A DNA stretch of 64,000 nucleotides from a virus, in IMG/VR virus record IMGVR_UViG_3300037042_006844, positions 122,556 to 186,555 of that record, one strand, 5' to 3'. Positions within the stretch are counted from its first letter, which is position 1. Each line of letters starts with the position of its first letter. A program made the translations under genes and the position numbers. This document shows, one piece after another, positions 16,641-62,160 of the stretch. The notes below the pieces were generated by a model, which searched no databases, was not told the origin of the DNA, and saw nothing but the letters and a program-made list of their open reading frames with translations.

Positions 16641-16680
16641 TCCTTGACTTCATAAAAAGCGGGTGTATCTTGGTATCAAG

Positions 16681-17145
16681 ATGATAATTATAAAAGACAA
16701 CTGCAACATTTTCGATGGTGGTGCTCAAGCCATCATTCATCAAGCCAACTGTTTCAACACGATGGGTAGTGGAATTGCCCGTCAGATTCGTGAACTCTAT
16801 CCAGAGGCGTATGCTGCGGATTGCATGACAGACCGAGGAGATCGGCGCAAGCTGGGTCATTTTAGCTGGACAAAGACCGGCGATGGTAAGTTTCACATCT
16901 ATAATTGCTATAGCCAATACGAATATGGCAGAGAACGTAGGCACACCAATTACGAAGCAATTTACACGGGGCTTACTGACATCAAAGCACACGCTGAGTC
17001 GCATGGTCTGACCACGTTGAGTCTGCCGCATATGATGGGTTGTATGTTGGGTGGCGGCAGTTGGAGAATTGTCGCTGCAATTATCGATGAGATTTTCTCC
17101 ACCGATCCAGAAACGGCGTTGTATATCTGCAAATACAATCCTTAA
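16681..17145 (+). CDS. macro domain protein (ADP-ribose binding or processing)
   Basis: GGAQAIIHQANCFNTMGSGIARQI matches the macro-domain glycine-rich motif. The ATG sits about 9 nt after a TTGACT…TATCTT promoter, so it is near-leaderless. The track's upstream start is a GTG. Confidence 0.65.
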   Translation: MIIIKDNCNIFDGGAQAIIHQANCFNTMGSGIARQIRELYPEAYAADCMTDRGDRRKLGHFSWTKTGDGKFHIYNCYSQYEYGRERRHTNYEAIYTGLTDIKAHAESHGLTTLSLPHMMGCMLGGGSWRIVAAIIDEIFSTDPETALYICKYNP

Positions 17146-17158
17146 AATAAAAAAACAT

Positions 17159-17509
17159 ATGAAAAATAGACCAGCAGTAGTTACGTTATTTGATAAAAAC
17201 CGATGGGACAGCTATAAAGAGCGTTCTTATCAACCGTTTAATTGTGAAACATGGCAGAGTCTATTACGTTCTGACTTAGCAATTAGTGTGGATTACATCA
17301 ACCAAACATTTACTGTGGTTAAAAATAGATATGGGTATTATGATAAAATCAAAAATGCTCCAATGAATTTGATGACCACGTTTATTTTCGATCCAGAATT
17401 GGATACGATGGAAAAACTTGGCAAATTTGGTCAGAAACCGTCAGACGTTGGTATTACTAATAATAATAAACCTCAACAAACACTATTTGCATGGGAGGCA
17501 CCGCATTGA
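17159..17509 (+). CDS. hypothetical protein
   Basis: Track ORF 17051..17509. The likely start is in AACATATGAAAAAT. Confidence 0.4.
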   Translation: MKNRPAVVTLFDKNRWDSYKERSYQPFNCETWQSLLRSDLAISVDYINQTFTVVKNRYGYYDKIKNAPMNLMTTFIFDPELDTMEKLGKFGQKPSDVGITNNNKPQQTLFAWEAPH

Positions 17510-18249
17510 ACACCACATTGGAACTTGGCACTTTCGTAAACACGGTCGCCGTAAAAAATCATCCATTCAAAAAACTGGTGGCACATCACAAATGCGCCAC
17601 TCCATTTGAATACATCATCGAAATTCTGCCAAAATGTAGTCCGACAGGACCGTGGATTGCTGGTGGGGCATTGTTACGCACATACACTGGACAGCCTCTT
17701 GACAGCGATGTTGATGTGTTTTTTCAAAACAAAGAGCAGTGTGATAGGTTCATCACCACCATTACAAGTGGTGCCTACGGTGGATCGATGGAAGATCGCA
17801 AGAAAAATCAATACACTGTGGAAACCCGGTTCAGCAACCAATGGCACACCACAATCACCATGAACTACATGGGTCGGGACTGGAAGATTCAGTGCATTAC
17901 ATTCGTGTTTTTTAAGACCATTAATGAATTGTTTGAATCATTTGATTTCGATGTGTGCATGATGGCATATGACGGTAATGAGTTGTATGTCAACAACACC
18001 ACATTTGATGCAATCGAAAACAAAATGGTTAAGTTGATGAAAATCAACTATCCCAGTATTACACTAAAACGACTTGTCAAATACATGCGTCAGGGGTATA
18101 ATGTTGATGACGCGGACGTTACAATGCTCGTCGCCAGTTTCCGAGGACCGAAGGAACCTGTTGGCATTATGGATGAAAGTGGTGAAAACGGAGGAAGGTG
18201 GGCAAAAATATCAAAAACCAACAATTGGTATATAAATTTGAGGCGATGA
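17491..18249 (+). CDS. Pol-beta-superfamily nucleotidyltransferase-like protein
   Basis: WIAGGALLRTYTGQPLDSDVDVFF fits the hG[GS]…[DE]h[DE]h nucleotidyltransferase signature and resembles the head domain of CCA-adding and MNT enzymes. Confidence 0.4.
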   Translation: MGGTALNTTLELGTFVNTVAVKNHPFKKLVAHHKCATPFEYIIEILPKCSPTGPWIAGGALLRTYTGQPLDSDVDVFFQNKEQCDRFITTITSGAYGGSMEDRKKNQYTVETRFSNQWHTTITMNYMGRDWKIQCITFVFFKTINELFESFDFDVCMMAYDGNELYVNNTTFDAIENKMVKLMKINYPSITLKRLVKYMRQGYNVDDADVTMLVASFRGPKEPVGIMDESGENGGRWAKISKTNNWYINLRR

Positions 18250-19132: not shown

Positions 19133-19540
19133 TTGATGGGCATGATGATGGAGCACTTGAAGCGCAAATTGGTGCGGATGAGATTGATGAATTTGTTGAA
19201 AGAATTTCGACATTTTGTGGGGGAGTTCATACACCATTGCTTAGGGATCATTTTGAATTCAAACGCACAGATTAACTTGACACGGGATAAAAAAAGTGAT
19301 ATAGGATATAGTATTTATATGAATTTAATAAGTTTAGTGAAAACAGAAAACATTGAAGATTTGCCAAACGCACTTAGAGCATTGGCAAACATCGCTGAAA
19401 CCGATATTAAAAGAATGGGGAGTTCTGCCAATTCGATTGGTATTTTTGGGGAGATAGATGGCGTTGTGGGCGATTTTGATTATGAGGTAAATTGCTCTCA
19501 TTTAAGTGGACTTTCAGACTATATTGAAAAAAATAATTAA
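19133..19540 (+). CDS. hypothetical protein
   Basis: 135-aa ORF. Confidence 0.4.
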   Translation: MMGMMMEHLKRKLVRMRLMNLLKEFRHFVGEFIHHCLGIILNSNAQINLTRDKKSDIGYSIYMNLISLVKTENIEDLPNALRALANIAETDIKRMGSSANSIGIFGEIDGVVGDFDYEVNCSHLSGLSDYIEKNN

Positions 19541-19541
19541 T

Positions 19542-19988
19542 ATGGAACAACTATTAGCACATATATTCGGGGACTACATCTTTCAGTCAGATTATCAGGC
19601 ATTAAACAAAAGCAAGAGGTCGTTTCCATGTTTTCTGCATGTATTGATCTATACAAGTATGTTTTTGTTTCTCACCACCAGTTGGAAGGCATTGCTGGTA
19701 ATCGGTGGGGTGCATTTTGTATTGGATAGGTGGCACTTCATTATTCGTAGGTTAATTTGGTGTAAGAATCATCTTGGACCTGGACTATCGTATGTTCCAT
19801 TTGCCAAATGTAATGCGACTGGCTATTATGATAACCTTATGAATGAGGTCACAAATCATCCGTCAACAAATGAGGAGATCAATGGATACACTCCCCGCCT
19901 CAATTATATTACGATTTGGCTTTATATCATTACGGACAATGCCATCCATTTGTTGACAAATTATTTGGCACTCAAATATCTAGCGTAA
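19542..19988 (+). CDS. hypothetical membrane protein
   Basis: ATG 2 nt after the previous stop (track ORF 19506..19988). TM helices present. Confidence 0.45.
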   Translation: MEQLLAHIFGDYIFQSDYQALNKSKRSFPCFLHVLIYTSMFLFLTTSWKALLVIGGVHFVLDRWHFIIRRLIWCKNHLGPGLSYVPFAKCNATGYYDNLMNEVTNHPSTNEEINGYTPRLNYITIWLYIITDNAIHLLTNYLALKYLA

Positions 19989-20004
19989 ATCCATATTTAT
20001 TGAT

Positions 20005-20346
20005 ATGAAACGCATTCTTTTTTCTATGGCTCTGGTTGCAACCGCATTGGTGGGGTGTGCCTCACATGAAACCACGGAGTCTCCCCAGCCCCCATCTACT
20101 GTGATTTACTATTATGATCCAATGCCCCCTTCGATGTGGATATACGAGTCACGTTTTTATCGCCACACACCCAGACCGGGTGTTGTTGTAGCAAGACCTC
20201 CGCATCGTGAGCCGCCACATGGGCATGATGATCACAGAGTTGCACCAACACCACCAATACCACCACCCGTCAAGGCACCTCCAGTGCATAACAACAACAA
20301 AATGCAGCCCCAGCCCGCAAATCGCATACATAATAGCGAGCGTTGA
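20005..20346 (+). CDS. Pro-rich lipoprotein
   Basis: Lipobox …ATALVGCASHE. Pro/His-rich C-terminus. Confidence 0.5.
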   Translation: MKRILFSMALVATALVGCASHETTESPQPPSTVIYYYDPMPPSMWIYESRFYRHTPRPGVVVARPPHREPPHGHDDHRVAPTPPIPPPVKAPPVHNNNKMQPQPANRIHNSER

Positions 20347-20371
20347 CAAATTGAGGTGGTTGTGTTAAGAT
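20343..20371 (+). promoter_or_regulatory. sigma70-like promoter (TTGACA-N17-TAAGAT) upstream of the structured leader of the coaD-coaE gene
   Basis: Read directly from the sequence. Confidence 0.45.
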
Positions 20372-20377
20372 AGTTAA

Positions 20378-20433
20378 ATGGTCGGAATTCCTCCTCTTGG
20401 CTAAAGCCGAAGAGGTTTCCTTCCTCCAAAAAT
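20378..20433 (+). repeat. conserved 5' leader element, copy 1, with a TAAA-loop hairpin
   Basis: AATGGTCGGAATTCCTCC-CTCTTGGC-TAAA-GCCGAAGAGG-TTTCCTTCCTCCAAAAATATG. About 85% identical to 41614..41661, with compensatory changes in the stem. Confidence 0.6.
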
Positions 20434-21567
20434 ATGAAAACCTGCATTTACCCCGGAAGTTTTGACCCAGTTACATTCGGACATGTTGATATTATCAACC
20501 GTGCAGCCAGCACGTTTGACAAAGTTATTGTTGCGGTTGGGATCAACAGCAGCAAAAAATATACATTCAAAACTGAACAACGCATACAGTTTCTTAAAAA
20601 CAATATCAAGCAGAGTAATGTATGTGTAATGCCATTCGATGGATTGCTGGCGGATTTTGCATACGAAAACAATGCCAAGACCATTATCAAAGGTGTTCGC
20701 AACAACCAAGATTTTGATTATGAAAGATTGTTGCACGAAATCACCATCACACAGCAAGCTGGAATTGACACACATATTCTGGTGGCAGATCAAAAGTTGA
20801 GCCACATCAGCAGCACTGCCGTAAAAGAACTGTGCAAATTTCAAGGGTTAATTCATGAATATGTTCCCTATGATGTCAAGGAAGCATTGGAGTGGGTGCT
20901 GAATGGGCAATTTATTGTGGGAGTCACTGGAGAAATTGGCATGGGCAAAAGCTATGTCAGTTCAAAGATCGTCGAAAAAACGGATGGCTGGCTTGGATAT
21001 GTGCATCCAGTGACAAATGTGGATTTGGATAAAGTGGCGCACGAATTGTATGAATCGGATGCTCCAGCCCATTTGGAATTGCGAGAAAATATCATTGAAC
21101 GGTTTCAAATGAAAAGTGGCTTCAGCCGAAAAGAGTTGGGCGATGTTGTGTTCAATGACATCAATAAACTACAACAACTCAATACTTTGATTCGCACACC
21201 ACTACTCACATTGCTGCGCAAGAAAATCAGAGAGCACAAGGGTTTGATTTTGTTGAATGGAGCATTGCTGGTTGAAGGCAACTACTTGTCGCTTTGCAAC
21301 AACAATGTGGTGGTAGTAGAATCAACAGAGCAGCAACAATTGGAAAATCTGGAACGTCGTGGGTTGACCGAAAAACAAGTTGAACGTCGATGGGCAAGTC
21401 AACTGACCACAGATGGAAAAATCAGACAGATCAACAGAGAAATTGAAAAGCATGGTCATGGCAAGTGCATCAAATACCAAAATGTTTACGTTGATCCATA
21501 TCAGGACCATATGAACACGTTTTTGATCAATCCATTGTATAACATGATGAGCAATCTTGAGAAATAA
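20434..21567 (+). CDS. coaD: bifunctional phosphopantetheine adenylyltransferase (CoaD) and dephospho-CoA kinase (CoaE) fusion
   Basis: N-terminal domain aligns with E. coli PPAT throughout (IYPGSFDPVTFGHVDI, SKK…F…EQR, KGVRNNQDFDYE, ISSTAVKE). C-terminal domain has a P-loop (IVGVTGEIGMGKSYV) and dephospho-CoA kinase-like layout. Confidence 0.75.
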   Translation: MKTCIYPGSFDPVTFGHVDIINRAASTFDKVIVAVGINSSKKYTFKTEQRIQFLKNNIKQSNVCVMPFDGLLADFAYENNAKTIIKGVRNNQDFDYERLLHEITITQQAGIDTHILVADQKLSHISSTAVKELCKFQGLIHEYVPYDVKEALEWVLNGQFIVGVTGEIGMGKSYVSSKIVEKTDGWLGYVHPVTNVDLDKVAHELYESDAPAHLELRENIIERFQMKSGFSRKELGDVVFNDINKLQQLNTLIRTPLLTLLRKKIREHKGLILLNGALLVEGNYLSLCNNNVVVVESTEQQQLENLERRGLTEKQVERRWASQLTTDGKIRQINREIEKHGHGKCIKYQNVYVDPYQDHMNTFLINPLYNMMSNLEK

Positions 21568-21799
21568 TAATTATAGTAATATGAGACCAGCACAAGCATA
21601 TAAAGTAAACCGAAATTTAGGTATCCATGATTCATACGCTCCCCACCCGCTTGCAAAAGATACGATTCTGTTTGAATGCACACGACATACTTATGGTTGC
21701 ATTGGACATGGAGGTATTGCGGTCACGTTCGACTCAGATGGAGACTATCCTTTTTTTGAAATAAATGAGGAGGATGTTGACCCTGTTGACAAAGTATAA
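21557..21799 (+). CDS. hypothetical protein
   Basis: 80-aa ORF. Confidence 0.3.
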   Translation: MRNNNYSNMRPAQAYKVNRNLGIHDSYAPHPLAKDTILFECTRHTYGCIGHGGIAVTFDSDGDYPFFEINEEDVDPVDKV

Positions 21800-21838
21800 A
21801 AACGTGCTAAGATATAAACAGTAAATAATACAAACAAT

Positions 21839-22378
21839 ATGATTCTTAAAACTAAATGCACTTGGTCTGATTGCGGACAAAATATTGAATTCGATGAGAG
21901 CCAGATAAACACAGAATGCTTGTGTCCATCTTGCAATCGTGAAATTAAATTGGCGGTCAATAATAGCAGCACTCCAATGGGCATACCAATTGCGGTTAGA
22001 TTGCATAGCAATAATAACAACGTTTCTATTGCTTGCAACTATACAAACGGTGATGCTCTTCAAAATTTAAGAGGCAATACGCACTACAAAACCACACGAA
22101 TATTTATTGAAATCATCCGATATTTCTTCTATGTCAATGCTGCGTTTCTTGTTATTGGCTATTTAGCATCGTTTATTGCCTCAAGTGGAGACGTATCTCC
22201 TAATACAGCATTAACGATCATAAATTTTGTCAACTCTGGAGCGTTTCAATTCTTTATTGTTGCGTGGGGTGTGTTGATCTGTTTGTTTCTCGGTTCTCTG
22301 TGGAAGGAAACAGCATCTTTGTTGGTGGATATTGCCGACGTTCAAATGTCAGTTTACAAGAATAATCGTAGGGATTGA
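21839..22378 (+). CDS. membrane protein with an N-terminal zinc ribbon
   Basis: CTWSDCGQ…CLCPSCNRE, followed by several TM helices. Confidence 0.5.
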   Translation: MILKTKCTWSDCGQNIEFDESQINTECLCPSCNREIKLAVNNSSTPMGIPIAVRLHSNNNNVSIACNYTNGDALQNLRGNTHYKTTRIFIEIIRYFFYVNAAFLVIGYLASFIASSGDVSPNTALTIINFVNSGAFQFFIVAWGVLICLFLGSLWKETASLLVDIADVQMSVYKNNRRD

Positions 22379-22423
22379 CATTTCATAGTTCCATGCCATA
22401 ATTATATTCAAGGTCAACAACCC

Positions 22424-22795
22424 CTAGGCTAAAGCCATAGGGGCTTGAAAGACACCGAGCTTTCTCAGTGATTTACATTCATTTGGCGAATTGACTGTCG
22501 CCTGCCCATCAAGTATGTTTCCATACGAGACGGGAAGTTTGGAACGATTTCCTATGTTCCGTGCAGCATTTAAGTCTGCATCATACACAATCCCACTCTT
22601 CGCATAAAACCTACAACCTCTACGCACACCCTCTTTGATACCACTAAAACTATCAATTTGAGAAGTGTAAGCAGGGCTAACTAGAATAACATTTTTTCCA
22701 ATGTTTTCTGCCTTGTAAGTTAATATTCTGCGAAGTTCAAATAATGGAACTTGTGCTATATGAGCAGTAAATGGATTTCGCCTCCTGCAATTCAC
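22424..22795 (-). pseudogene. tnpB: truncated TnpB (C-terminal RuvC region only), same lineage as 24855..26051
   Basis: …VRRGCRFYAKSGIVYDADLNAARNIG parallels …VRKGCRYYGLDKVVLDADLNAANNI in the full-length copy. The N-terminal roughly 270 aa are absent. A TAAA-loop hairpin overlaps its 3' end (22421-22443). Confidence 0.55.
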
Positions 22796-23116: not shown

Positions 23117-24727
23117 ATGAAAAAACTAGTAAAATGCCCGCCCCTGCCGAGAATGGCGAAATCGCTGCAAAATACAGATCATGATCCATACACAGCAACC
23201 GCCGATATTATTGATAACAGCATCGATGCTGATGCTACAACAATAAAACTGGATGTTTGCGTGGAAAATAAAGAATTTGTTGTTAGAATTATCGACGATG
23301 GATTTGGTATGGATGTGGACGGCTTGCTTGCGGCAATGACTTATGGCGATCATCGATCTGGAGATGGTGGTCATGGCAAGTTTGGTTTGGGGTTAAAAAC
23401 TTCCGCAACCAGTATAGGTAATCGATTTGAAGTCCACACAAGAGACGAAGACGGCAAAATTCTTCGAGGTAGTTTTGATGTGGACGAGCTTATCGCCGAA
23501 GAGGACCCTGACCATCAGTGGGAACATGAAATTAGCGATGAAATTGGCGACGAAGACGTTTTGTGGTTCAATGAATGTGTGGGGACTGGAACTGGAACAA
23601 TAGTCACTATAACAAAAATCGACCGAACTAATGCGTCTCAATTTGCAACGCGTATGAAACAGCATTTGGGACAAGTTTACCGTAACTATTTGGCACCTTC
23701 AAAAGATGCAACTATTCCGGGTAAAATCAAAATGTATGTCAATAATGCTCTGATTTATGCAGTAGACCCGCTGCTTCGGCATATACCATCCACAAAACCG
23801 TATGAAATTCCAATTGAGCTTGCTCCTGGAGAAGTGGTTCACGCAACTATAGTCAAACTTGGTAAACTTGAAGCTGAATCAGATAAAGTCGTCGATGAAA
23901 ATGATGATGACTACCAAAATAATCTCAACACAAATATTCGGAATCAAGGTGTATATGTCATGAGAAATGATCGGGAGATCATGTCGGCTGATAAAAAGGT
24001 GTTTGCGTTTACTTGGCCTGGAAAAGGACACAACAGTATGAATTATATTCGAGTGGAATTAGCATATAGTTCAGAACTGGATAAACATTTTCAGCTAAAC
24101 CATAATAAAACCGCTATTCAAATCCCAAGTCAGAGTATCCGAGATAAAATCAAAAGTGCTTTAGTTAATCCGATTAAAGAAATTAAAAGGCAGATAGACG
24201 AAGAAAAAGCCGCCGTTCCAGATGGTAAAATGCAGGAAATATTTGATGCCATCAATGCTACCCTAATTGAAAAACGGAGAACTCTTATTCTTCCAAAAGG
24301 AAAGAGCGAGACCCGTCAGCCGAGCGGCGGAACCAACAATTCTGGGTCTATACAACCGAAAAACAGTGGCAGGAAAAGAGGCGTGGGGAGCAATCCCAAT
24401 TTGAATCGAAAAGAAATTGTTCCAACTATCGGTGTTGTTTCCAACGGAAAGGGCGGCGCAATATTCGAATACGGACTCAATCTTGATGACGGCAAGCCCG
24501 ATCAAATGTATGTTAATTGGAACACAGATCATCCATTTTATCAAAAATTTGTGATTAACCACGCCCCCGATCAACTGATTGCGACGACATATTTGATAAT
24601 TGGATTAGCAGCCGCATTTCAAATGGAACAGGGCAATTGTTGTTCTGATGAAAACGACAAATTGGTCGATAATTTGATGGAGAGAATTTCTACCGCCATA
24701 TCTCAAAATATGAGAACATTATCCTAA
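23117..24727 (+). CDS. GHKL-superfamily ATPase (HATPase_c_3/MORC-like), 536 aa
   Basis: N-box ADIIDNSIDADAT, G1 box IIDDGFGMD and G2 box GKFGLGLKTSA at the N-terminus. Flanked by a TnpB fragment and a TnpB gene. Confidence 0.65.
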   Translation: MKKLVKCPPLPRMAKSLQNTDHDPYTATADIIDNSIDADATTIKLDVCVENKEFVVRIIDDGFGMDVDGLLAAMTYGDHRSGDGGHGKFGLGLKTSATSIGNRFEVHTRDEDGKILRGSFDVDELIAEEDPDHQWEHEISDEIGDEDVLWFNECVGTGTGTIVTITKIDRTNASQFATRMKQHLGQVYRNYLAPSKDATIPGKIKMYVNNALIYAVDPLLRHIPSTKPYEIPIELAPGEVVHATIVKLGKLEAESDKVVDENDDDYQNNLNTNIRNQGVYVMRNDREIMSADKKVFAFTWPGKGHNSMNYIRVELAYSSELDKHFQLNHNKTAIQIPSQSIRDKIKSALVNPIKEIKRQIDEEKAAVPDGKMQEIFDAINATLIEKRRTLILPKGKSETRQPSGGTNNSGSIQPKNSGRKRGVGSNPNLNRKEIVPTIGVVSNGKGGAIFEYGLNLDDGKPDQMYVNWNTDHPFYQKFVINHAPDQLIATTYLIIGLAAAFQMEQGNCCSDENDKLVDNLMERISTAISQNMRTLS

Positions 24728-24819: not shown

Positions 24820-24847
24820 TTGACATTTTATAGAACCGTGGTAAGAT
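24820..24847 (+). promoter_or_regulatory. sigma70-like promoter (TTGACA-N16-TAAGAT) reading antisense into the tnpB 3' end and hairpin
   Basis: Read from the sequence. Its function is uncertain. Confidence 0.35.
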
Positions 24848-24854
24848 ATAAGTG

Positions 24855-26051
24855 TCAATTGACACACGACCCTAAAGGGTCGGTGCTTGCCAGAGAAGAA
24901 CCTCTGACGATTGGTTGATTGACAGCAACCTGTCCATCGAGTGCGGAGCACGAGATGGAGTGTTCTTTGTCATATCTAAAAGTGATATTGTTCGCAGCAT
25001 TTAGGTCTGCGTCCAATACGACTTTATCAAGTCCATAATACCTACATCCTTTACGGACTCCGTTATCAAGACCACGATGGTCTAATTGGGATGTCCAGTG
25101 CGGATTAACGATGACCACTTGTTTTCCAAGTGATGCTGCCTTGTAGGTCAATATGTTCCTGAGAAGGAAATATGGCATTTGTGAATTGCGATTATTAAAT
25201 CTTCGTCCTTTGAACTTGGATTTAATCTTGGTCAAATCCTCAATCACAATGGTATTTGCCTTTGTGGTGAGAAGATGATTTACAACATTGTGTATGTAGT
25301 TCTTTGAAAAATGGTGTTCACGTCTGCGGAGTTTGGTTTGCTTAACTCTGGTAGAATGTGATTTGTGAGATTGGAGTTTTCTCTTGTTCCAACGTATCTT
25401 ACGTTTGGTTCGGTTAAACTCATTGCCTTTGATGATAATGCCTTCACTGGTAGAAGCAAGTCGTTTGAGTCCCAAATCAACTCCAATACATTTTTTGTTG
25501 TCTTGGAATGTTGTGGTATCGTCAAATACAATAGAGAGGAACACTCTATCGTCTCTTACAAAAAGAGAAGGGTCTTTGAGTTTGTATTTTGAAAATAATT
25601 CGTTGACCTTATTATACTTGAGAAGTTTGGCAGTGATACGACCATTACAAGTTGTCAGTTTAATGGCGTCTTGACCAATCCAAGTATAGATGCGAGTGTC
25701 CAGTTGGATGTTTAGTCGGTTTGTCTCAACTGGTTCTGTGATTTTATGGCAATTGGAACGAAGAGATTTGTATTTTGCAACCACGTCTTGTTCTGCCTTA
25801 ATGACAAACTGACTTGGAAGCATTGGAAGTTGTTCTCGAACCATCTTATAACATCTTTGGTGAAGAGGCATAAGACCATTACAGGACTTCATTCCAAATC
25901 GGATTTTAGATATGATATTGAAAGCATCACGTTTCAACGATAGTGATTTGATGAGAGATTGTTTATCCTCATCATTTTCAAAAATCAGTTGAACATTGTA
26001 TGTTTTCATTATTACTGGATATACATATTGTGAAGAAACAGAAAACAACAA
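24855..26051 (-). CDS. tnpB: TnpB-like RNA-guided nuclease (compact lineage without a canonical CxxC zinc ribbon)
   Basis: RuvC-like motifs (IGVDLGLKRL, …IVIEDL…, DADLNAANNI). The likely start is the internal Met of MKTYNVQLIF. Confidence 0.75.
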   Translation of the reverse strand: MLFSVSSQYVYPVIMKTYNVQLIFENDEDKQSLIKSLSLKRDAFNIISKIRFGMKSCNGLMPLHQRCYKMVREQLPMLPSQFVIKAEQDVVAKYKSLRSNCHKITEPVETNRLNIQLDTRIYTWIGQDAIKLTTCNGRITAKLLKYNKVNELFSKYKLKDPSLFVRDDRVFLSIVFDDTTTFQDNKKCIGVDLGLKRLASTSEGIIIKGNEFNRTKRKIRWNKRKLQSHKSHSTRVKQTKLRRREHHFSKNYIHNVVNHLLTTKANTIVIEDLTKIKSKFKGRRFNNRNSQMPYFLLRNILTYKAASLGKQVVIVNPHWTSQLDHRGLDNGVRKGCRYYGLDKVVLDADLNAANNITFRYDKEHSISCSALDGQVAVNQPIVRGSSLASTDPLGSCVN

Positions 26052-26130
26052 ACTATTTTGAGAAAGTGAGATATTTTCGTTGCTCCTCCCCTACCCTAAA
26101 GGGATAGGGGTTTCCGCAACGAGTGAGAAT

Positions 26131-27237
26131 ATGAAGATAGACATTTCAGCAATTGACCGCTCACAATTTATGGTGCATGAGCATGTTGTGAACGGCGAGG
26201 TCGTTTATTTGGTTCACCCAAAAAATATGGGAGTAAAATGGACTAATGACAATATACATTTGAGATCGAGTATATGGGACAGCGATGGCAATTTGGTGAG
26301 TGCCAGCTTCAAAAAATTCACCAACTGGGGAGAGAATCCTGAGAATTTTCCTGTTCCAGAGTCGTTGCGAAACGCATGTGTTGTGGAGAAGCTCGACGGA
26401 AGCACTTTAATTGTCAGTAAGTATAAGGGCAATTATATTCTTAGAACCCGTGGAACCACAGATGCTGCCAAACTGGACAATGGTTATGAGTTGGAGCAGT
26501 TTAAGCAGACCATTTTGCCTAAACTGTTGGATGTTCATTTGGTTGCTGGAGATACGTGGAAGTATTCATTCTTGTTTGAGTGGGTCAGTCCCGTAAACAA
26601 AATTGTATTAAACTACGGAGATTCTCCAGACTGGTTTTTGATCGGTATCATTTATCATGGGGACTATTCTTTGATTGATCAACTTACGTTGGACAATTTA
26701 GCTTGGCAACATGGTTTGAAACGCCCAACTGTTTACAGCTTTCCAACCATTGAGCAATTATTGAAGGATGTTGATGCTTGGAAGCTCAAGGAGGGCGTGG
26801 TCGTTTACAGCAATCGTGATCAAATGCTGCACAAAGTCAAGGGGGCGTGGTATCTTGCATTGCACCACATGAAGAGCGAGTTGGCGAGTGTTGAGAAAGT
26901 GATGGATGTTTGGTTGGATCAAAACATGCCTACATACAATGCTTTTTATGATTACATTGCGACCACGTTCGATTTTGAGTTGGCAGAGCAGTGCCGTGGA
27001 ACCATCAGCAATCTTTGTGATGCTCGTAAAGAGGTTGATAAGATTGTTGCTGCGATGGCAGATTTCGTGGAGTCGAAAGTGCGTTGTCTGCCGTCACGCA
27101 AAGAGCAAGCACAGCTTGTATTGGGTTCTTATGGTAACACCAACCGTTCGGCGTATGTGTTCGCACTACTCGACGGCAAGACGCTAACTAAAGATCAATA
27201 CAAGAAATTGATGTTCCAAGTAATAATGAAAAAGTGA
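26131..27237 (+). CDS. rnlA: RNA ligase 1 (T4 RnlA/gp63 family)
   Basis: Motif I VVEKLDGSTLIVSKYKGNYILRTRGT (T4: LTKEDGSLVS…KSKGS). Also FKKFTNWGENPE, FLFEWVSPVNKIVLNY and EGVVVYS…HKVKGAWYLALH, which match T4 Rnl1 blocks. ATG at 26131; the track's upstream start lies inside the IS hairpin. Confidence 0.75.
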   Translation: MKIDISAIDRSQFMVHEHVVNGEVVYLVHPKNMGVKWTNDNIHLRSSIWDSDGNLVSASFKKFTNWGENPENFPVPESLRNACVVEKLDGSTLIVSKYKGNYILRTRGTTDAAKLDNGYELEQFKQTILPKLLDVHLVAGDTWKYSFLFEWVSPVNKIVLNYGDSPDWFLIGIIYHGDYSLIDQLTLDNLAWQHGLKRPTVYSFPTIEQLLKDVDAWKLKEGVVVYSNRDQMLHKVKGAWYLALHHMKSELASVEKVMDVWLDQNMPTYNAFYDYIATTFDFELAEQCRGTISNLCDARKEVDKIVAAMADFVESKVRCLPSRKEQAQLVLGSYGNTNRSAYVFALLDGKTLTKDQYKKLMFQVIMKK

Positions 27238-35980: not shown

Positions 35981-36008
35981 TTGACTTCTTATCAAACGCT
36001 GCTAAGAT
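35981..36008 (+). promoter_or_regulatory. sigma70-like promoter (TTGACT-N16-TAAGAT) for rIIA
   Basis: The -10 box overlaps the track's first ATG, so the real start is probably the ATG at about 36025 (MKTIATNN…). Confidence 0.45.
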
Positions 36009-38457
36009 GAGTTTATCGCTGAGAATGAAAACTATCGCAACCAATAACACAGTCACAAACAGTCCAAACCTTACTTCGACTGGATTTACCATCCGTCCGA
36101 AGAATTTGGGAAAAATCATCAATATCGTTGAGAACGACATCTATTCTGATAAAGTTCTCGCCGTTATCCGAGAATATTCCTGCAATGCCTACGATGCCAA
36201 TATCGAAGCTGGCAAGCGGGAGACTCCCATCGTTGTTTCTCTACCATCACGTTTGAGCAGTGAGTTCAAAGTTCGTGATTACGGCAATGGTTTGACCGAA
36301 GCTGAAATTCATGAGATTTATACCTCCTACGGTGAATCCACCAAAGAGGATTCCGATGATTATATCGGTCAGCTTGGAATTGGTAGCAAGAGCGGCTTTG
36401 CTTATGGTGAGAATTTCGTTGTGACCAGTTGGAAAAACGGAGTCAAAACCATTTACAACGCCGTAAAAGGCACCAATGAGCGTCAGATGGTGAAGCTGTT
36501 CAGCCTACCTTCCGATGAACCCAGTGGTATTGAAGTGACCATTCCTGTTAAAAACGGGGATGAGGTATCATTCAAAAACAAAAGCATTGAGTTTTTCAAG
36601 TATTGGAAAATCCAACCCAAGCTAATTGGTGCGAGCCAGCAAGAAATCGACTCTTTCCAAACCCCAGTAATTCTTGAAGGCAAAGGTTGGCAAATTACCA
36701 AATCGTTCAACAGTAAATGGTCGGGTGTGTCTGCGATTGCCGTCATGGGCAACATTTCATATCCTATTCAGTGGGGGTTGGTGCAAGATAAACTGCGCAC
36801 CCATTTGGATTCGATGACCCAGGATAGAACGCTTTTCATGAAGTTTCTGCCGTTTATCACCAACAATCGGTTCGTGATTCGGTTCGGCATTGGGGACGTT
36901 CAGATGGCTCCCAGCCGAGAAGCATTGCAATACACTGACCGCACCGTTAATGGCATTGTCAAACGCCTTTTGGAAATCAGCAAAGAAATCGAAGCAGTGG
37001 TCCTCAATATTTTCAACAATTGCACAACGTTGTGGGAATACAAAGGTCATCTCAATAACATTTTTGGAAGAGCTTTGGGTGGTGGTTATTACTCTGCTCA
37101 CGAGACTGTGTTCTATAGTATGTCAAACATTGAAGTGCTTTATGATTTGGTTAAAAACAAATTGCATTTCAACGGAGCCAACGTGGTCAGCGCACATTAC
37201 GAAAATGTTTCTTATTGGGATGTCAACAAAGGAAAAGTATCGATGGTGCTCCAACCAAAAGCATCTCCATCATTATCGCCAGGAGCAACTTTAAGTAGTA
37301 GTATGCAAGAGCCTGCCTACGAGTCAATCGTAACTAGCCATTACGTTAATAGCCGCGATAAATTGGTAACTGAGTCTCCGAGATTTGGAAACCAGTATTT
37401 CAAAATCATTGCCACTCCCCATGCACATTTTGTGATCATGGATATTGATCGCAAAAGCAATGTCAAGCAGTGTCTCAAATGGTATATCAGTGAAGGCGCA
37501 AAAAATCCTAAATTGAATATTCAGCATCGTGCTCCGAAACTGGTTTATACACTACAATTTGGAAATGATGCGGTGCGTGCTGCATTTTTCAATGCGTTTA
37601 ACATCAAAGGTGCTACAATTGTCAATTTCAGCCAAATATTTGAACTGTATAAACCATTGATTCCAAAACGGCAGAGTTCTGCTACCAAGCTGGAAGATGA
37701 TACTGTGTATTGCGGCATGATTAACCCTGGGAACCATTTCAGCTACTATCGGTCCCGCAACACGCTCGACGCTCTGGCAGAGTGGAGAGCCAACGTTGAT
37801 CTCAAAGCTGAAAAAGGGTTTTATGTTGATATGAGCAGTGCCAACGGGAATGTTGTGATCAATGGTATGGTGATTACGCCTTGGACATTTTTCAGCAATA
37901 TCAGTATGCTAAAAAATGCTGGTGTTGATTTTGGTCAAATTACTCGGGTTCAACTATTCGGTAGTCGCATTATGAATGGGAATAAATTTGATCGCAACAA
38001 ACAAAATTGGACAAATTTTGTTACATACATGGAACAGTTTCTCCGGGGCTACGACAAAAGTCCGTTCGTGGCTTCGTCTGTTATACATAAAAGAGTTAAT
38101 GATCCACATCGACCGTTTTATATTCACAAAGATGCATTGGCGCAGATCGCGCAGTATTTTTCAAAAAATCATTTGTTGCACGAATTCCTCGGTGCGTTTC
38201 CTTGGATGCCGACCAACATTCAAGATCGGATTGGTATTTTGAATTCGTTGCACGTTGAGATTGTGCATGGAAAGGATGTTGCGGTTAAAGACACGATGGA
38301 ACATTATTTTGACACGATCATCAAGAAATATCCCATGCTTAAAACACTGCTATTTGTCCCCAGTTATAAAGATGTGCAGGGTCAGGTCCCAGTGACGATT
38401 GTCCAAGAAATTGTTGATTATATTAAACTTGTTGACAGCCTTCAAAGTAACGGCTAA
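36007..38457 (+). CDS. rIIA: rIIA-like protein with an N-terminal GHKL ATPase fold
   Basis: N-box EYSCNAYDA, G1 box VRDYGNGL and G2 box GQLGIGSKSGF. About 800 aa. Directly upstream of a clear rIIB homologue. Confidence 0.65.
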   Translation: MSLSLRMKTIATNNTVTNSPNLTSTGFTIRPKNLGKIINIVENDIYSDKVLAVIREYSCNAYDANIEAGKRETPIVVSLPSRLSSEFKVRDYGNGLTEAEIHEIYTSYGESTKEDSDDYIGQLGIGSKSGFAYGENFVVTSWKNGVKTIYNAVKGTNERQMVKLFSLPSDEPSGIEVTIPVKNGDEVSFKNKSIEFFKYWKIQPKLIGASQQEIDSFQTPVILEGKGWQITKSFNSKWSGVSAIAVMGNISYPIQWGLVQDKLRTHLDSMTQDRTLFMKFLPFITNNRFVIRFGIGDVQMAPSREALQYTDRTVNGIVKRLLEISKEIEAVVLNIFNNCTTLWEYKGHLNNIFGRALGGGYYSAHETVFYSMSNIEVLYDLVKNKLHFNGANVVSAHYENVSYWDVNKGKVSMVLQPKASPSLSPGATLSSSMQEPAYESIVTSHYVNSRDKLVTESPRFGNQYFKIIATPHAHFVIMDIDRKSNVKQCLKWYISEGAKNPKLNIQHRAPKLVYTLQFGNDAVRAAFFNAFNIKGATIVNFSQIFELYKPLIPKRQSSATKLEDDTVYCGMINPGNHFSYYRSRNTLDALAEWRANVDLKAEKGFYVDMSSANGNVVINGMVITPWTFFSNISMLKNAGVDFGQITRVQLFGSRIMNGNKFDRNKQNWTNFVTYMEQFLRGYDKSPFVASSVIHKRVNDPHRPFYIHKDALAQIAQYFSKNHLLHEFLGAFPWMPTNIQDRIGILNSLHVEIVHGKDVAVKDTMEHYFDTIIKKYPMLKTLLFVPSYKDVQGQVPVTIVQEIVDYIKLVDSLQSNG

Positions 38458-41556: not shown

Positions 41557-41613
41557 ACTACCCACCCGCTAAAGCAGGCGGGTTTTCTGCTCCCACAAAG
41601 ATAAAATTGTGAA
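41551..41613. mobile_element. apparent tnpB-less miniature derivative of IS-2 (right-end hairpin fused to left-end sequence)
   Basis: 41551-41587 (CTATGAACTACCCACCCGCTAAAGCAGGCGGGTTTTC) matches 60849-60885 at the IS-2 tnpB 3' end in 35 of 37 positions. The next stretch TCTGCTCCCACAAAGATAAAATTGTG matches TCTGCTCCCTCAAAGATAAATATAGTG at 62133-62158, beyond the tnpB start. The NAMPT stop codon lies inside the element. Confidence 0.4.
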
Positions 41614-41661
41614 AATGGTCGGAATTCCTCCCCTTAGGGGTTTCCTTCCTCCAAAACTATG
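41614..41661 (+). repeat. conserved 5' leader element, copy 2
   Basis: AATGGTCGGAATTCCTCC-CCTTAGGGG-TTTCCTTCCTCCAAAACTATG. The stem differs from copy 1 but remains self-complementary. Confidence 0.55.
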
Positions 41662-41677
41662 AAATGGATTAATCCCC

Positions 41678-41705
41678 TTGACTTCTATAAAATCTGTGGT
41701 ATACT
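41678..41705 (+). promoter_or_regulatory. sigma70-like promoter (TTGACT-N16-TATACTTTAG)
   Basis: Near-identical -10 region and downstream sequence to the helicase promoter. ATG 7 nt downstream. Confidence 0.5.
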
Positions 41706-41711
41706 TTAGAT

Positions 41712-41846: not shown

Positions 41847-41858
41847 AAACATAAACGT

Positions 41859-42407: not shown

Positions 42408-42422
42408 TAATATAAAATCACT

Positions 42423-43593: not shown

Positions 43594-43622
43594 TTGACAG
43601 ACAGAGCAAAGTCTGCTAAGAT
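43594..43622 (+). promoter_or_regulatory. sigma70-like promoter (TTGACA-N17-TAAGAT) for the tRNA cluster
   Basis: About 35 nt upstream of the first tRNA. Confidence 0.45.
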
Positions 43623-43657
43623 AGATGAAGTTAGCAGTTGATTTTTGAAATTAGAAT

Positions 43658-60848: not shown

Positions 60849-62160
60849 CTATGAACTACCCACCTGCTAAAGCAGGTGGGTTTCCACCGCAATAGTTATG
60901 AGTTTCTATCGGGTAGTTCCTACCCGTATTAAACGTTGTCTTTGGAAATGAGAAGTCCAAGATATTCTTGGCAGCATTCACATCTCTATCGTGTTTCTCA
61001 TTACAATCTGGGCAAGTCCATTCTCTATCATTTAATGTAAGAGAATGATTAACATATCCACAATGAGAACACGTCTTACTGGATGGTTCAAATCTACCTA
61101 TTTTTAGGAAGTTCTTACCATACCAGTCGCTTTTATATTGGAGCATATTTACAAATTTTCCCCAAGCATAATCTCCTATGAGTTTATTAGTTGGTGAATA
61201 GTTGTTCTTCTGCATCCCCCGAATGGTTAAATCCTCAATACAGATATTACCAATTTGGTTATCATTGGTTAGTTTGTATGAGAGTTTATCCAAGAAATCT
61301 TTGCGTTGTCTTGTTATTTTAGAATGGAGTTTGGTTATCTGCTCTTGCTTGGAGATATGAGCAGTAGAACCTTTAGTGAGTTGCTCCAAATCCTGTTGGT
61401 GTTTAGTAAGTTTATCAGCAGATTGTTTCAATACCTTCGGGTTCTCAATCTTTGTTCCATCATTCAGAGTAAGAAATGTTTTTACTCCAAAATCTATTCC
61501 TATTGCTTTATCCTTTTTTGGTGTTGGTTTCTTTGATAGTTCTTTTTCAACCTCTACAAGAATGGAAACATAGTATCGTTTATCTCTGTCTTGGGATACG
61601 ATTGCTTGTTTAATCGTTCCTTCTGCTTGTCGGTCAAAGATACATTTAATGCCTCCACGAAACTTTGGAATGACTAATCGCTTTCCATCATAGTTCAACT
61701 TAATGTTGTTATTAGTCATTGGGACAACGAACGATTTACGAGCATACTTCTTCGACTTAAACTTTGGAAATCCAGCATTGGAACGAAAGAAGGAAGTATA
61801 TGCTCTATCCAAGTTGAGGATGGATTGCTGTAGCGATTGAGAACCTATCTCACTCAACCATTCATTTGTCTTTTTCAACTTTGGAAGTTCAGTTGCCATA
61901 TCCTGCCAGTTCAATGTTTTCTTGGTTTCTTTGTAATGCTTAATCTTTACTTCAAGGAAATGGTTGTATATCCATCGGCAGTGTCCAAAATGCTTGGACA
62001 AAAGAACCTCTTGTTCCTTGGTAGGATATATTCTGTATTTGTAAGCAACGTTATACATTCTACAACATACATATCATTCACTTTCTAAAAACGATTAATT
62101 ATTTTTCAATGGGTCGCATTCATCCCATATGGGGTTTCTGCTCCCTCAAAGATAAATATA
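60849..62160 (-). mobile_element. IS200/IS605-family element carrying only tnpB (IS-2)
   Basis: TnpB 60856..62058. Perfect TAAA-loop hairpin CCCACCTGC-TAAA-GCAGGTGGG at 60859-80, which encodes the TnpB C-terminus. Hairpin CCCATATGGGG plus TTTCTGCTCCC beyond the start (62108-62160). Boundaries are approximate. Confidence 0.45.
60856..62058 (-). CDS. tnpB: TnpB (OrfB_IS605 type, with a zinc ribbon)
   Basis: YKYRIYPTKEQ N-terminus, DFGVKTF (RuvC I), CIEDL (RuvC II), CSHCG…CPDCN zinc finger and DRDVNAAKNI (RuvC III). Confidence 0.8.
   Translation of the reverse strand: MYNVAYKYRIYPTKEQEVLLSKHFGHCRWIYNHFLEVKIKHYKETKKTLNWQDMATELPKLKKTNEWLSEIGSQSLQQSILNLDRAYTSFFRSNAGFPKFKSKKYARKSFVVPMTNNNIKLNYDGKRLVIPKFRGGIKCIFDRQAEGTIKQAIVSQDRDKRYYVSILVEVEKELSKKPTPKKDKAIGIDFGVKTFLTLNDGTKIENPKVLKQSADKLTKHQQDLEQLTKGSTAHISKQEQITKLHSKITRQRKDFLDKLSYKLTNDNQIGNICIEDLTIRGMQKNNYSPTNKLIGDYAWGKFVNMLQYKSDWYGKNFLKIGRFEPSSKTCSHCGYVNHSLTLNDREWTCPDCNEKHDRDVNAAKNILDFSFPKTTFNTGRNYPIETHNYCGGNPPALAGG

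What the first reader, a model, noticed from the sequence alone, without database searches (positions are those of the whole stretch)
20434..21567. Phage-encoded fused CoaD-CoaE (last two steps of coenzyme A biosynthesis) behind a structured leader
The PPAT domain aligns nearly end to end with E. coli CoaD and the C-terminal half is a P-loop dephospho-CoA kinase. CoA-pathway auxiliary genes are rare in phages, and a CoaD-CoaE fusion is unusual in bacteria. It may boost acyl-carrier or acetyl-CoA supply during infection, or produce or consume a nucleotide signal. It is preceded by the duplicated leader element.
Basis: partly seen in the sequence, partly recalled or inferred. Interest (0 to 1): 0.55.

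Follow-up and report, generated by a model that had tools for sequence, protein, structure and literature searches.

The report
Phage-encoded fused CoA synthase (CoaD-CoaE)
A T4-like phage carries one intact gene that fuses the last two enzymes of coenzyme A synthesis; the gene is real and conserved in many large uncultured phages, but it is an ordinary enzyme pair, and its "structured leader" is a hairpin linked to mobile elements, not a regulator of this gene.

Summary
The ORF at 20434-21567 (+, 377 aa) is real. Its two halves pass the curated cutoffs for CoaD (TIGR01510, 162 vs 103 bits) and CoaE (TIGR00152, 82 vs 65.6 bits). Catalytic motifs are invariant across 21 homologues, and dN/dS against the nearest relative is 0.16. 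The window is a T4-like phage (rIIA, rIIB, RNA ligase, NAMPT, tRNAs) with no cultured relative.

The fusion is not unique. About 290 clusters at 50% identity exist. They form a phage clade on contigs up to about 340 kb, plus cellular clades in DPANN archaea, CPR bacteria and Planctomycetes. In one CPR genome the gene follows PFL and acetyl-CoA synthetase.

The gene has its own early-type promoter (TTGACA-N17-TGTTAAGAT; six copies in the window, 0.06 expected). The "leader" hairpin is absent from the five nearest relatives. It belongs to a hairpin family that ends TnpB genes and also precedes the RNA-ligase gene.

Most likely function: it converts host 4'-phosphopantetheine to CoA early in infection. 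Verdict: new member of a known kind, modest interest.

The parts
20343..20371 (+). Sigma-70-type promoter with extended -10: TTGACA, 17 nt, (TGT)TAAGAT. The predicted transcription start is near 20378.
   Evidence: 10 of 12 consensus matches, TG present. TTGACA-N15-18-TAAGAT occurs 6 times, all on the + strand and all upstream of + strand genes or the tRNA cluster, against 0.06 expected.
20390..20419 (.). 5'-UTR hairpin: stem 20393-20401 / 20406-20415, loop TAAA. Read on the minus strand it is GAAACC-stem-TTTA-stem-GG, the motif that ends TnpB ORFs.
   Evidence: -19.2 kcal/mol, z = -2.7. (3 distinct sites, all minus strand, 0.21 expected). (same motif at TnpB 3' ends). Absent in relatives. No Rfam family.
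20434..21567 (+). coaDE coding sequence: 377 aa bifunctional phosphopantetheine adenylyltransferase / dephospho-CoA kinase.
   Evidence: AF2 model pLDDT 87.4, pTM 0.86. dN/dS 0.157 against L162.
20434..20892 (+). PPAT (CoaD) domain, residues 1-153. Carries T14-F-G16-H17 (the T/HxGH motif), K41, K86/R89, D93, Y96-E97 and S126-S127-T128.
   Evidence: TIGR01510 162 bits. PDB PPATs down to 5.7e-31. Foldseek top 50 hits all PPAT, target TM about 0.9, rmsd about 1.8 A. Invariant columns in A1.
20911..21462 (+). Dephospho-CoA kinase (CoaE) domain, residues 160-343. D199 lies at the end of strand 2. Family-specific motifs are R232, N289-N291, R309, R319 and Q323.
   Evidence: TIGR00152 82.2 bits against cutoff 65.55. 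PF01121 4.9e-22. 12 of 12 PDB hits are DPCKs. Invariant columns.
20929..20952 (+). P-loop G166-E-I-G169-M-G171-K172-S173.
   Evidence: Read directly from the sequence. Invariant G166, G169, G171, K172, S173 in A1.
21463..21564 (+). Poorly conserved C-terminal tail (residues 344-377), modelled as a strand plus a long helix.
   Evidence: Alignment A1 columns 380-454 are variable. Secondary structure.
20005..20346 (+). 113-aa proline-rich lipoprotein-like ORF (signal peptide plus LVGC lipobox). Together with the promoter and hairpin it forms an insertion of about 430 bp between the DUF3307 gene and coaDE, relative to related phages.
   Evidence: translation. GC 51% against 42% for the window. No homologue in any related locus. 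In L162 and L166 the DUF3307 gene is followed by coaDE after 20-22 nt.
22421..22446 (-). The 'duplicate' of the leader hairpin. It encodes the last codons (…QAPMALA*) of a 123-aa TnpB C-terminal fragment (22424-22795, minus strand).
   Evidence: family D8; phrog_506 transposase.
26085..26114 (-). Another solo copy of the same hairpin motif, 17 nt upstream of the true RNA-ligase start (ATG 26131). tnpB1 (24855-26051, minus strand) lies between it and the promoter at 24820-24847.
60859..60884 (-). The same motif forming the last codons of full-length tnpB2 (60856-62058, minus strand), with the stop codon TAG directly after it.

Best explanation
The gene encodes a catalytically competent, bacterial-type bifunctional CoA synthase. 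The N-terminal PPAT domain adenylylates 4'-phosphopantetheine with ATP to give dephospho-CoA. The fused C-terminal kinase phosphorylates the 3'-hydroxyl to give CoA.

The gene belongs to a T4-like phage and is transcribed from its own strong sigma-70-type promoter with an extended -10. That implies early expression by unmodified host RNA polymerase. The inferred role is that of an auxiliary metabolic gene. It converts the host's pool of 4'-phosphopantetheine into CoA independently of host CoaD and CoaE, so CoA and acyl-CoA supply is maintained during infection. From established E. coli biochemistry, the 4'-phosphopantetheine pool accumulates because CoaD is a CoA-feedback-controlled secondary bottleneck, and it is also released by ACP and CoA turnover. 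Host CoaD and CoaE are not renewed after host shut-off.

Shown here: domain identity, intact motifs, purifying selection, phage context, the promoter class, and a family shared with cells where the gene sits next to CoA-using enzymes. Inferred: timing of expression, the source of substrate, and the benefit to the phage.

The upstream hairpin is not part of the gene's conserved design. It is a TnpB / IS200-IS605-type terminal hairpin that happens to lie in the 5' UTR.
For: Both domains exceed the curated equivalog cutoffs. PDB hits are exclusively PPATs and DPCKs. The structure model is confident, and its N-terminal half superposes on solved PPATs at TM about 0.9.

In 21 homologues at 44-69% identity the following are invariant: the TxGH motif, K41, R89, D93, Y96/E97, S126/S127, the P-loop G166..K172-S173, and D199. 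dN/dS is 0.157 against L162 and 0.115 against L164.

Cellular members of the same fused family occur in a 411-kb Woesearchaeota contig, in Planctomycetes, in a contig with form III RuBisCO and CysRS, and in a Paceibacterota genome directly downstream of pyruvate formate-lyase, its activase and an ADP-forming acetyl-CoA synthetase. This argues that the family makes genuine CoA.

Fusing the kinase to PPAT argues that CoA, not dephospho-CoA, is the end product (inference). Phage context: rIIA and rIIB; NAMPT, Prs and ligases; relatives with rIIB, RnlA and Rnl2. Promoter class: 6 copies against 0.06 expected, all upstream of + strand genes.
Against: No enzymatic or genetic data exist for any phage member. 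No cultured phage carries a close homologue, and no paper addresses its function. No CoA-consuming enzyme, ACP or PPTase was found among the window ORFs scanned, so it is unclear why extra CoA would help. The gene's neighbours are not conserved across fused loci, so context gives no functional hint. Whether the phage enzyme escapes CoA feedback inhibition is unknown.
Confidence: 0.72

Rival explanations
1. Counter-defence by cofactor reconstitution. The enzyme rebuilds CoA from 4'-phosphopantetheine after a host immune effector or stress response has cleaved or depleted CoA or adenine-nucleotide cofactors. This would be analogous to phage NAD+ reconstitution pathways.
For: The window is an accessory region rich in repair and counter-defence-type genes: NAMPT plus PRPP synthetase, a Macro domain, RNA ligase, a Thg1-like enzyme and tRNAs, and rIIA/rIIB. 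In L001 the fused gene lies 2-5 kb from NUDIX, NMNAT-like, NAMPT and NADAR genes. PPAT plus DPCK is exactly the salvage branch that starts from the CoA and ACP breakdown product (established pathway knowledge).
Against: No CoA-depleting defence system was found in the literature searches. NAMPT lies within 8 kb in only 3 of 29 fused loci, so linkage is weak. Guilt by association is the only support.
Confidence: 0.1
2. Repurposed chemistry. The two domains act on a non-CoA substrate, for example by adenylylating another phosphorylated thiol or sugar, or by 3'-phosphorylating another ADP-containing molecule, to make or destroy a nucleotide signal or a DNA/RNA modification precursor.
For: The nucleotidyltransferase plus P-loop kinase architecture recurs in enzymes with other substrates, such as NadR. 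Weak NadR/NMNAT hits appear, and NadR-like proteins are top hits in the viral fold search. The kinase half is only 25-30% identical to characterised DPCKs and carries family-specific motifs such as N289-N291.
Against: CoaD scores 162 bits against about 20-34 bits for the NMNAT and NadR models. The residues known to contact phosphopantetheine and ATP in PPAT are invariant. The same fused family is the apparent housekeeping enzyme in reduced cellular genomes, where it sits with acetyl-CoA enzymes.
Confidence: 0.07
3. The upstream hairpin is a dedicated cis-regulatory leader (a riboswitch or attenuator sensing CoA or a precursor) that controls coaDE.
For: A stable hairpin lies in the predicted 5' UTR, 15-18 nt before the start codon. 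A similar arrangement precedes rnlA.
Against: It is absent upstream of coaDE in the five nearest relatives, including one at 92% protein identity. There is no Rfam match. The same motif forms the 3' end of TnpB ORFs here and in a related phage. It is a simple 9-bp hairpin with no ligand-pocket-sized structure. The fold z-score is only -2.7.
Confidence: 0.03
4. The gene is cellular: host DNA, a misassembly, or a recently captured passenger with no function in the phage.
For: Cellular homologues at 44-48% identity exist.
Against: The gene is embedded among phage genes on the same strand and carries a phage-type promoter. Its GC content (40.9%) matches the window. It falls in a clade whose inspected members all sit in phage-like contexts, including IMG/VR contigs. 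It is under purifying selection within that clade.
Confidence: 0.02

Closest known systems
Bacterial CoaD (phosphopantetheine adenylyltransferase, TIGR01510; e.g. E. coli 1B6T, B. subtilis 1O6B)
   Same: End-to-end homology at 37-40% identity. The TxGH and ISST motifs and the substrate-contacting residues are conserved. The predicted fold superposes at TM about 0.9.
   Different: It is covalently fused to a kinase at its C-terminus and encoded by a phage. The oligomeric state (bacterial PPAT is a hexamer) and CoA feedback are unknown.
Bacterial CoaE (dephospho-CoA kinase, TIGR00152 / PF01121; e.g. Aquifex 2IF2, H. influenzae 1JJV)
   Same: Scores above the equivalog cutoff. The P-loop, the acidic residue after strand 2, and the overall order of motifs are all present.
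   Different: Only about 25-30% identity. A family-specific NNN motif sits before the Walker-B-like strand, there is a 35-residue variable tail, and the domain is fused to PPAT.
Eukaryotic COASY (bifunctional CoA synthase, PPAT-DPCK; mouse 2F6R)
   Same: Same two activities in the same N-to-C order. The DPCK domains are homologous (2f6r, 6.9e-8).
   Different: Only the kinase half matches COASY. The phage PPAT is of the bacterial CoaD type, so the fusion is an independent event and not a COASY orthologue.
Fused CoaD-CoaE of DPANN archaea, CPR bacteria and Planctomycetes (uncharacterised; P0086, P0084, L003, P0109)
   Same: Same architecture, 43-48% identity over the full length, and the same invariant residues in both halves.
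   Different: These are cellular housekeeping genes in reduced or unusual genomes. They form separate clades from the phage sequences in the NJ tree. Some carry an extra unknown C-terminal domain of about 210 aa.
Phage NAD+ salvage enzymes (NAMPT plus NMNAT/NadR-type bifunctional proteins)
   Same: Phage-encoded completion of a nucleotide cofactor from a late precursor. NadR likewise fuses a nucleotidyltransferase to a P-loop kinase. NAMPT and Prs are present in this same window.
   Different: A different cofactor and different families: the NMNAT and NadR models score 20-34 bits against 162 for CoaD. No defence-related role has been shown for CoA.

Membership tests
CoaD / PPAT (TIGR01510 equivalog) | Whole-protein score above the curated equivalog cutoff, over the full model length | tested here: met
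   162.3 bits against cutoff 103.3; residues 3-153 on model positions 1-152 of 155
CoaD / PPAT (TIGR01510 equivalog) | Nucleotidyltransferase T/HxGH motif and C-terminal ISxxS/T motif | tested here: met
   T14-F-G16-H17 and I125-S126-S127-T128 are present; T14, G16, H17, S126 and S127 are invariant in 21 homologues
CoaD / PPAT (TIGR01510 equivalog) | PPAT fold | tested here: met
   AF2 pLDDT 87; Foldseek top 50 hits are all PPAT, target TM 0.86-0.92, rmsd 1.5-2.6 A
CoaD / PPAT (TIGR01510 equivalog) | Catalyses 4'-phosphopantetheine + ATP -> dephospho-CoA | not testable with these tools
   Needs an enzyme assay or complementation
CoaE / dephospho-CoA kinase (TIGR00152, PF01121) | Score above the curated cutoffs and better than any other kinase family | tested here: met
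   TIGR00152 82.2 against 65.55; PF01121 78.9 against 27; the next kinase family is uridine kinase at E = 0.022; 12 of 12 PDB hits are DPCKs
CoaE / dephospho-CoA kinase (TIGR00152, PF01121) | P-loop GxxGxGKS/T and a conserved Asp after strand 2 (DxD) | tested here: met
   G166-E-I-G-M-G-K-S173 and D197-L-D199; D199 is invariant
CoaE / dephospho-CoA kinase (TIGR00152, PF01121) | Phosphorylates the 3'-OH of dephospho-CoA | not testable with these tools
   Needs an enzyme assay or complementation
Eukaryotic COASY | PPAT domain of the eukaryotic type as well as the DPCK domain | tested here: not met
   2f6r matches only query residues 157-334 (the kinase half); the N-terminal half matches bacterial PPATs only
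Known cis-regulatory RNA (riboswitch or leader) upstream of coaDE | Match to an Rfam family, or conservation upstream of orthologues | tested here: not met
   No Rfam hit at gathering score or at E <= 1; the leader is absent in L162, L163, L164, L165 and L166
IS200/IS605-TnpB terminal hairpin (right-end / omega-RNA region) | Hairpin overlapping the last codons of a TnpB ORF, recurring with different stem sequences | tested here: met
   tnpB2 at 60859-84, the L166 TnpB at 1534-59, and diverged versions at tnpB1 and the TnpB fragment. The coaDE and rnlA copies share GAAACC-stem-TTTA-stem-GG.
IS200/IS605-TnpB terminal hairpin (right-end / omega-RNA region) | Defined element ends, TnpA cleavage sites, and an expressed omega RNA | not tested
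   No TnpA was found among the ORFs scanned, and element boundaries were not mapped
Phage cofactor-reconstitution counter-defence (NARP-like) | Restores a cofactor depleted by a defence system | not testable with these tools
   The only support is weak co-location with NAMPT (3 of 29 loci; L001)

The most novel reading that the evidence does not exclude
Large phages carry the fused CoaD-CoaE as a CoA 'reconstitution' module. It would rebuild CoA from 4'-phosphopantetheine, escaping host feedback control, to counter a host response that degrades or withholds CoA. This would extend the NAD+-reconstitution paradigm to a second nucleotide cofactor and imply an undiscovered CoA-targeting defence.
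Probability: 0.08. Interest if true: 0.7.

Novelty: new member of a known kind. Interest (0 to 1): 0.3.

Why it matters
The finding adds the last two steps of CoA synthesis to the set of cofactor pathways carried by large phages, alongside NAD+, PRPP, folate and queuosine. These steps occur as a single conserved fusion protein. The same fusion serves as the apparent CoA synthase of DPANN, CPR and Planctomycetes cells.

If CoA supply limits infection, this gene is a clean handle for testing it. The practical value is mainly better annotation: the gene is a bifunctional PPAT/DPCK, not just 'pantetheine-phosphate adenylyltransferase'. It also offers a compact one-polypeptide enzyme for making CoA from phosphopantetheine. 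It does not reveal a new mechanism.

Tried and rejected
- A megablast of 19500-22500 against GenBank phages found nothing. A tblastn of the window helicase found only a 24%-identical Thermus phage hit. The phage therefore has no cultured relative and its host could not be named.
- A viral-contig scan using patterns from the single protein found no relative. It only worked with the alignment.
- Literature searches for phage CoaD/CoaE, CoA-depleting defence, or jumbo-phage CoA biosynthesis returned nothing relevant, apart from a virome AMG list.
- A riboswitch or leader reading of the upstream hairpin was rejected. There is no Rfam hit and it is not conserved.
- Conserved gene neighbourhood was tested by tblastn of 12 window proteins against 29 fused loci. 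Only DUF3307 (7 of 29) recurs. NAMPT is found in 3 of 29, and Prs and the immediate downstream ORFs in 0 of 29.
- A search for CoA-using partners (ACP, PPTase, acyltransferase, CoaA/BC) among about 40 window ORFs found none.
- The extra C-terminal domain of the 590-aa variants has no Pfam or NCBIfam hit and is unrelated to the window HD protein.
- The afdb50 fold library was unavailable. BFVD holds no fused equivalent.
Full report

Pfam places a cytidylyltransferase-like domain at residues 5-132 (7e-20) and a CoaE domain at 161-333 (4.9e-22). NCBIfam equivalog models are more specific. TIGR01510 (coaD) covers residues 3-153 at 162.3 bits against a cutoff of 103.3. TIGR00152 (dephospho-CoA kinase) covers residues 161-339 at 82.2 bits against a cutoff of 65.55. 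NMNAT and NadR models score only about 20-34 bits, and the best other kinase (uridine kinase) has E = 0.022.

Against solved structures, the N-terminal half matches 34 distinct bacterial PPAT sequences. The best is B. subtilis 1o6b at 5.7e-31. E. coli 1b6t aligns query 2-152 to chain 3-154 of 159. The C-terminal half matches dephospho-CoA kinases. Searched alone, the C-terminal half hits 12 sequences, all DPCKs.

**Is the protein likely active?** An alignment of 21 fused homologues (44-69% identical to the window protein) shows invariant residues in both active sites:
- PPAT half: the TxGH motif (T14, G16, H17), K41, K86, R89, D93, Y96, E97 and S126-S127.
- Kinase half: the P-loop (G166, G169, G171, K172, S173) and D199, the acidic residue after strand 2 that is typical of DPCKs.

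The mapping of these residues to E. coli catalytic residues (H18, K42, R88/R91, D95, Y98/E99, S128-130) is from my memory of the PPAT literature. It is consistent with the printed alignments.

AlphaFold2 on this alignment gives pLDDT 87.4 and pTM 0.86. The model's N-terminal half superposes on solved PPATs at target TM 0.86-0.92 and rmsd 1.5-2.6 A. Nei-Gojobori dN/dS is 0.157 against the 92%-identical relative L162 and 0.115 against L164, so the gene is under purifying selection.

**What genome is this?** The window encodes:
- rIIA (36007-38457) and rIIB (38551-39843);
- a T4-type RNA ligase, an ATP-dependent DNA ligase, NAMPT, a PRPP synthetase, a Thg1-like enzyme and two full-length TnpB genes;
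- a Macro domain, a SpoU methylase and ClpP;
- five tRNAs.

Relatives carrying the fused gene also encode rIIB, RnlA, Rnl2, PTH2 and Macro. It is thus a T4-like phage. It has no close DNA or protein relative among 50,697 GenBank phage records.

**How common is the fusion?** The word-indexed search found 448 homologues. All 120 listed carry both Pfam domains at 44-100% identity, some on contigs of 130-411 kb. The exhaustive search of 1.84 billion representatives found 292 clusters at E <= 1e-30, and nearly all of the top 150 span residues ~1-350. IMG/VR holds about 25 fused loci on viral contigs of 37-467 kb, plus many huge-phage contigs with coaD alone.

In species-representative bacterial and archaeal genomes, only one of the 594 confirmed CoaD loci sampled (L003) was fused.

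Context inspection shows that the family is both viral and cellular:
- Phage-like context (long runs of small co-directional unknown ORFs together with ligases, CCA-adding enzyme, NAMPT or rIIB): P0038 (L001), P0003, P0007, P0013 and P0053.
- Cellular context:
  - P0086 lies in a 411-kb Woesearchaeota contig with aCPSF1-like, CorA, CarS and PS decarboxylase genes.
  - P0084 lies with form III RuBisCO and CysRS.
  - P0109 lies in a Planctomycetes contig with MreB.
  - L003 (Paceibacterota) lies immediately downstream of pyruvate formate-lyase, its activase and an ADP-forming acetyl-CoA synthetase.

A neighbour-joining tree separates a large clade, containing the window and every member shown to be phage-borne, from the Planctomycetes and DPANN/CPR clades. 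That tree is distance-based and midpoint-rooted, so it is indicative only. The viral structure library BFVD contains no fused equivalent. It holds only a standalone phage DPCK and NadR-like proteins.

The only literature found is a red-snow virome study that lists coaD and coaE among the most abundant viral AMGs without functional analysis (PMC11097641).

**Expression signals and the 'leader'.** Immediately upstream of the gene are TTGACA (20343), 17 nt, and TGTTAAGAT (ending at 20371). The pattern TTGACA-N15-18-TAAGAT occurs six times in the window against 0.06 expected. All six are on the + strand and upstream of + strand genes or the tRNA cluster: coaDE, ORF 21839, the rnlA region, DNA ligase, rIIB and the tRNAs. 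This is a real promoter class, of the sigma-70 extended -10 type that T4-like phages use for early genes. The timing is inferred.

The predicted 5' UTR contains a hairpin at 20393-20415 (-19.2 kcal/mol for the 68-nt UTR, z = -2.7). It has no Rfam match at gathering score or at E <= 1. It is not conserved with the gene:
- In L162 (92% protein identity) and L166, the DUF3307 gene is followed by coaDE after 20-22 nt.
- In L163, L164 and L165, the start abuts or overlaps the preceding ORF.

Relative to these phages, the window has an insertion of about 430 bp. It comprises a 113-aa proline-rich lipoprotein-like ORF (GC 51% against 42% for the window; no homologue in any locus), the promoter and the hairpin.

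Read on the minus strand, the hairpin is GAAACC-stem-TTTA-stem-GG. This motif occurs at three distinct sites in the window, all on the minus strand, against 0.21 expected:
- upstream of coaDE;
- at 26085-26114, 17 nt upstream of the true rnlA start at 26131;
- at 60859-60884, where it encodes the last codons of tnpB2.

The TnpB gene of related phage locus L166 ends with the same motif but a different stem sequence. tnpB1 sits between the promoter at 24820 and the rnlA hairpin.

The 'leader' is therefore a hairpin family associated with TnpB / IS200-IS605 elements, present as solo copies in two 5' UTRs. It may incidentally affect mRNA stability or translation, but it is not a dedicated regulator of coaDE. 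How the solo copies arose is not resolved. They could be relics of excised or deleted elements, or small hairpin-only derivatives.

**Mechanism.** Shown: the protein has both intact CoA-pathway domains, is conserved and constrained, and belongs to a family that in cells sits with CoA-dependent enzymes.

Inferred: early in infection the enzyme uses ATP to convert 4'-phosphopantetheine to dephospho-CoA and then to CoA. Established E. coli biochemistry (Jackowski and Rock; Geerlof et al.; cited from memory) holds that PPAT is a secondary, CoA-inhibited control point, that 4'-phosphopantetheine accumulates and is excreted, and that ACP and CoA turnover regenerates it. A phage-encoded PPAT-DPCK would draw on that pool without needing the upstream pathway. 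The covalent fusion argues that CoA, not dephospho-CoA, is the intended product.

Why extra CoA benefits the phage is unknown. No CoA-using enzyme was found among about 40 window ORFs scanned.

**Rivals.**
- Counter-defence 'CoA reconstitution', suggested by the company the gene keeps (NAMPT, Prs, Macro and tRNA-repair enzymes here; NUDIX, NMNAT, NAMPT and NADAR in L001). The linkage is weak (NAMPT in 3 of 29 loci) and no CoA-depleting defence was found.
- Altered substrate specificity. This is disfavoured by the invariant substrate-contacting residues and by the cellular members.
- A regulatory leader. Largely refuted.
- Cellular contamination. Refuted by context.

**Comparison and novelty.** The protein is a member of the CoaD and CoaE families by every sequence and structure criterion tested. 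It works like eukaryotic COASY (same two steps, same domain order) but is not an orthologue, because only the kinase half matches 2f6r. Its closest relatives are uncharacterised fused proteins of large phages and of DPANN, CPR and Planctomycetes cells.

This is a new member of a known kind. It is a well-supported but unsurprising auxiliary metabolic gene, already auto-annotated by JGI as pantetheine-phosphate adenylyltransferase (in two cases as PPAT/dephospho-CoA kinase). Interest is modest, at 0.3. It would rise only if a defence-related or feedback-escaping role were shown.

Noticed in passing
window 24820-26133: A full-length TnpB gene (24855-26051, minus strand) sits between an early-type promoter (24820-24847) and the RNA-ligase gene. 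The real start of that gene is ATG 26131, not the TTG at 26080 in the ORF list. A solo TnpB-type hairpin (26085-26114) lies in what would be the rnlA 5' UTR. This looks like an IS insertion into a phage 5' UTR.
   Followed up: partly
window 22375-22795: A 123-aa C-terminal fragment of TnpB (minus strand; phrog_506) is flanked by a promoter-like TTGACA-N16-CATAAT at 22375-22402 that points into it in antisense. It is probably a decayed IS copy.
   Followed up: partly
window 20005-20346: A 113-aa proline-rich ORF with a signal peptide and lipobox (…ALVGC). Its GC is 51% against 42% for the window. It is absent from all related loci and has no PHROG hit. It could be a moron-type lipoprotein (superinfection exclusion or o-spanin-like); function untested.
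   Followed up: partly
window 40159-43403: NAMPT (40159-41556) and a PRPP synthetase (42423-43403) are separated by an unknown 182-aa ORF (41859-42407) with no Pfam, PHROG or NCBIfam hit. No NMNAT was recognised in the window, so the unknown ORF is a candidate for the missing step of an NAD+ salvage or reconstitution module.
   Followed up: partly
window 43594-45245: A cluster of five tRNAs (Lys-UUU, Glu-UUC, two Met-CAU, Ile-UAU) sits behind one of the TTGACA…TAAGAT promoters. The tRNA-Ile(UAU) call is 94 nt long (44237-44330), which is unusual for an Ile tRNA. The Met-CAU at 44155-44231 was called by ARAGORN but not by Rfam.
   Followed up: no
window 57960-60659 (minus strand): An 899-aa protein with three Methyltransf_24 domains, next to tnpB2 (60856-62058). 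It is possibly a multi-specificity DNA or sugar methyltransferase.
   Followed up: no
window 50545-57676: A run of RNA and protein maintenance genes: SpoU-type methylase (50545), Thg1-like 3'-5' nucleotidyltransferase (51099), ClpP-like protease (52649), YhaM-like HD protein (54289), and two calcineurin-like phosphoesterases (54861; 56720 on the minus strand). With RnlA and the tRNAs, this suggests a tRNA repair toolkit.
   Followed up: no
window 23117-24727: A 536-aa protein with an N-terminal HATPase_c_3 (GHKL ATPase) domain lies between the TnpB fragment and tnpB1. rIIA (36007-38457) has the same domain type. Its function is unknown.
   Followed up: no
window 45249-50172 (minus strand): Two very large minus-strand ORFs (810 aa and 854 aa) overlap by 74 nt. 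The second has a weak tail-spike PHROG hit (3.4e-8). They are the only candidate structural genes in the window.
   Followed up: no
proteins P0124, P0129, P0135, P0144, P0163 and others (not in the window): About 25 of the top 150 family representatives are 565-620 aa: CoaD-CoaE plus an extra C-terminal domain of about 210 aa with conserved YHxxxH, FHDxIYD, NExxSA and DxDLSxLG motifs but no Pfam or NCBIfam match. Their N-termini resemble the DPANN/CPR clade. From memory it looks like an HD-superfamily phosphohydrolase; this was not tested.
   Followed up: partly
L003 919-7131 (Paceibacterota MAG contig JAAYYE010000010.1): Pyruvate formate-lyase, PFL activase, ADP-forming acetyl-CoA synthetase and the fused coaDE are co-directional and nearly contiguous. 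This looks like an operon linking CoA completion to CoA-dependent fermentation in a CPR bacterium.
   Followed up: partly
window 16663-18249: A Macro-domain protein (16663-17145) and a 252-aa protein matching phage nucleotidyltransferase PHROGs (17491-18249) lie 2-4 kb upstream of coaDE. These are candidate ADP-ribose-related or counter-defence genes.
   Followed up: no
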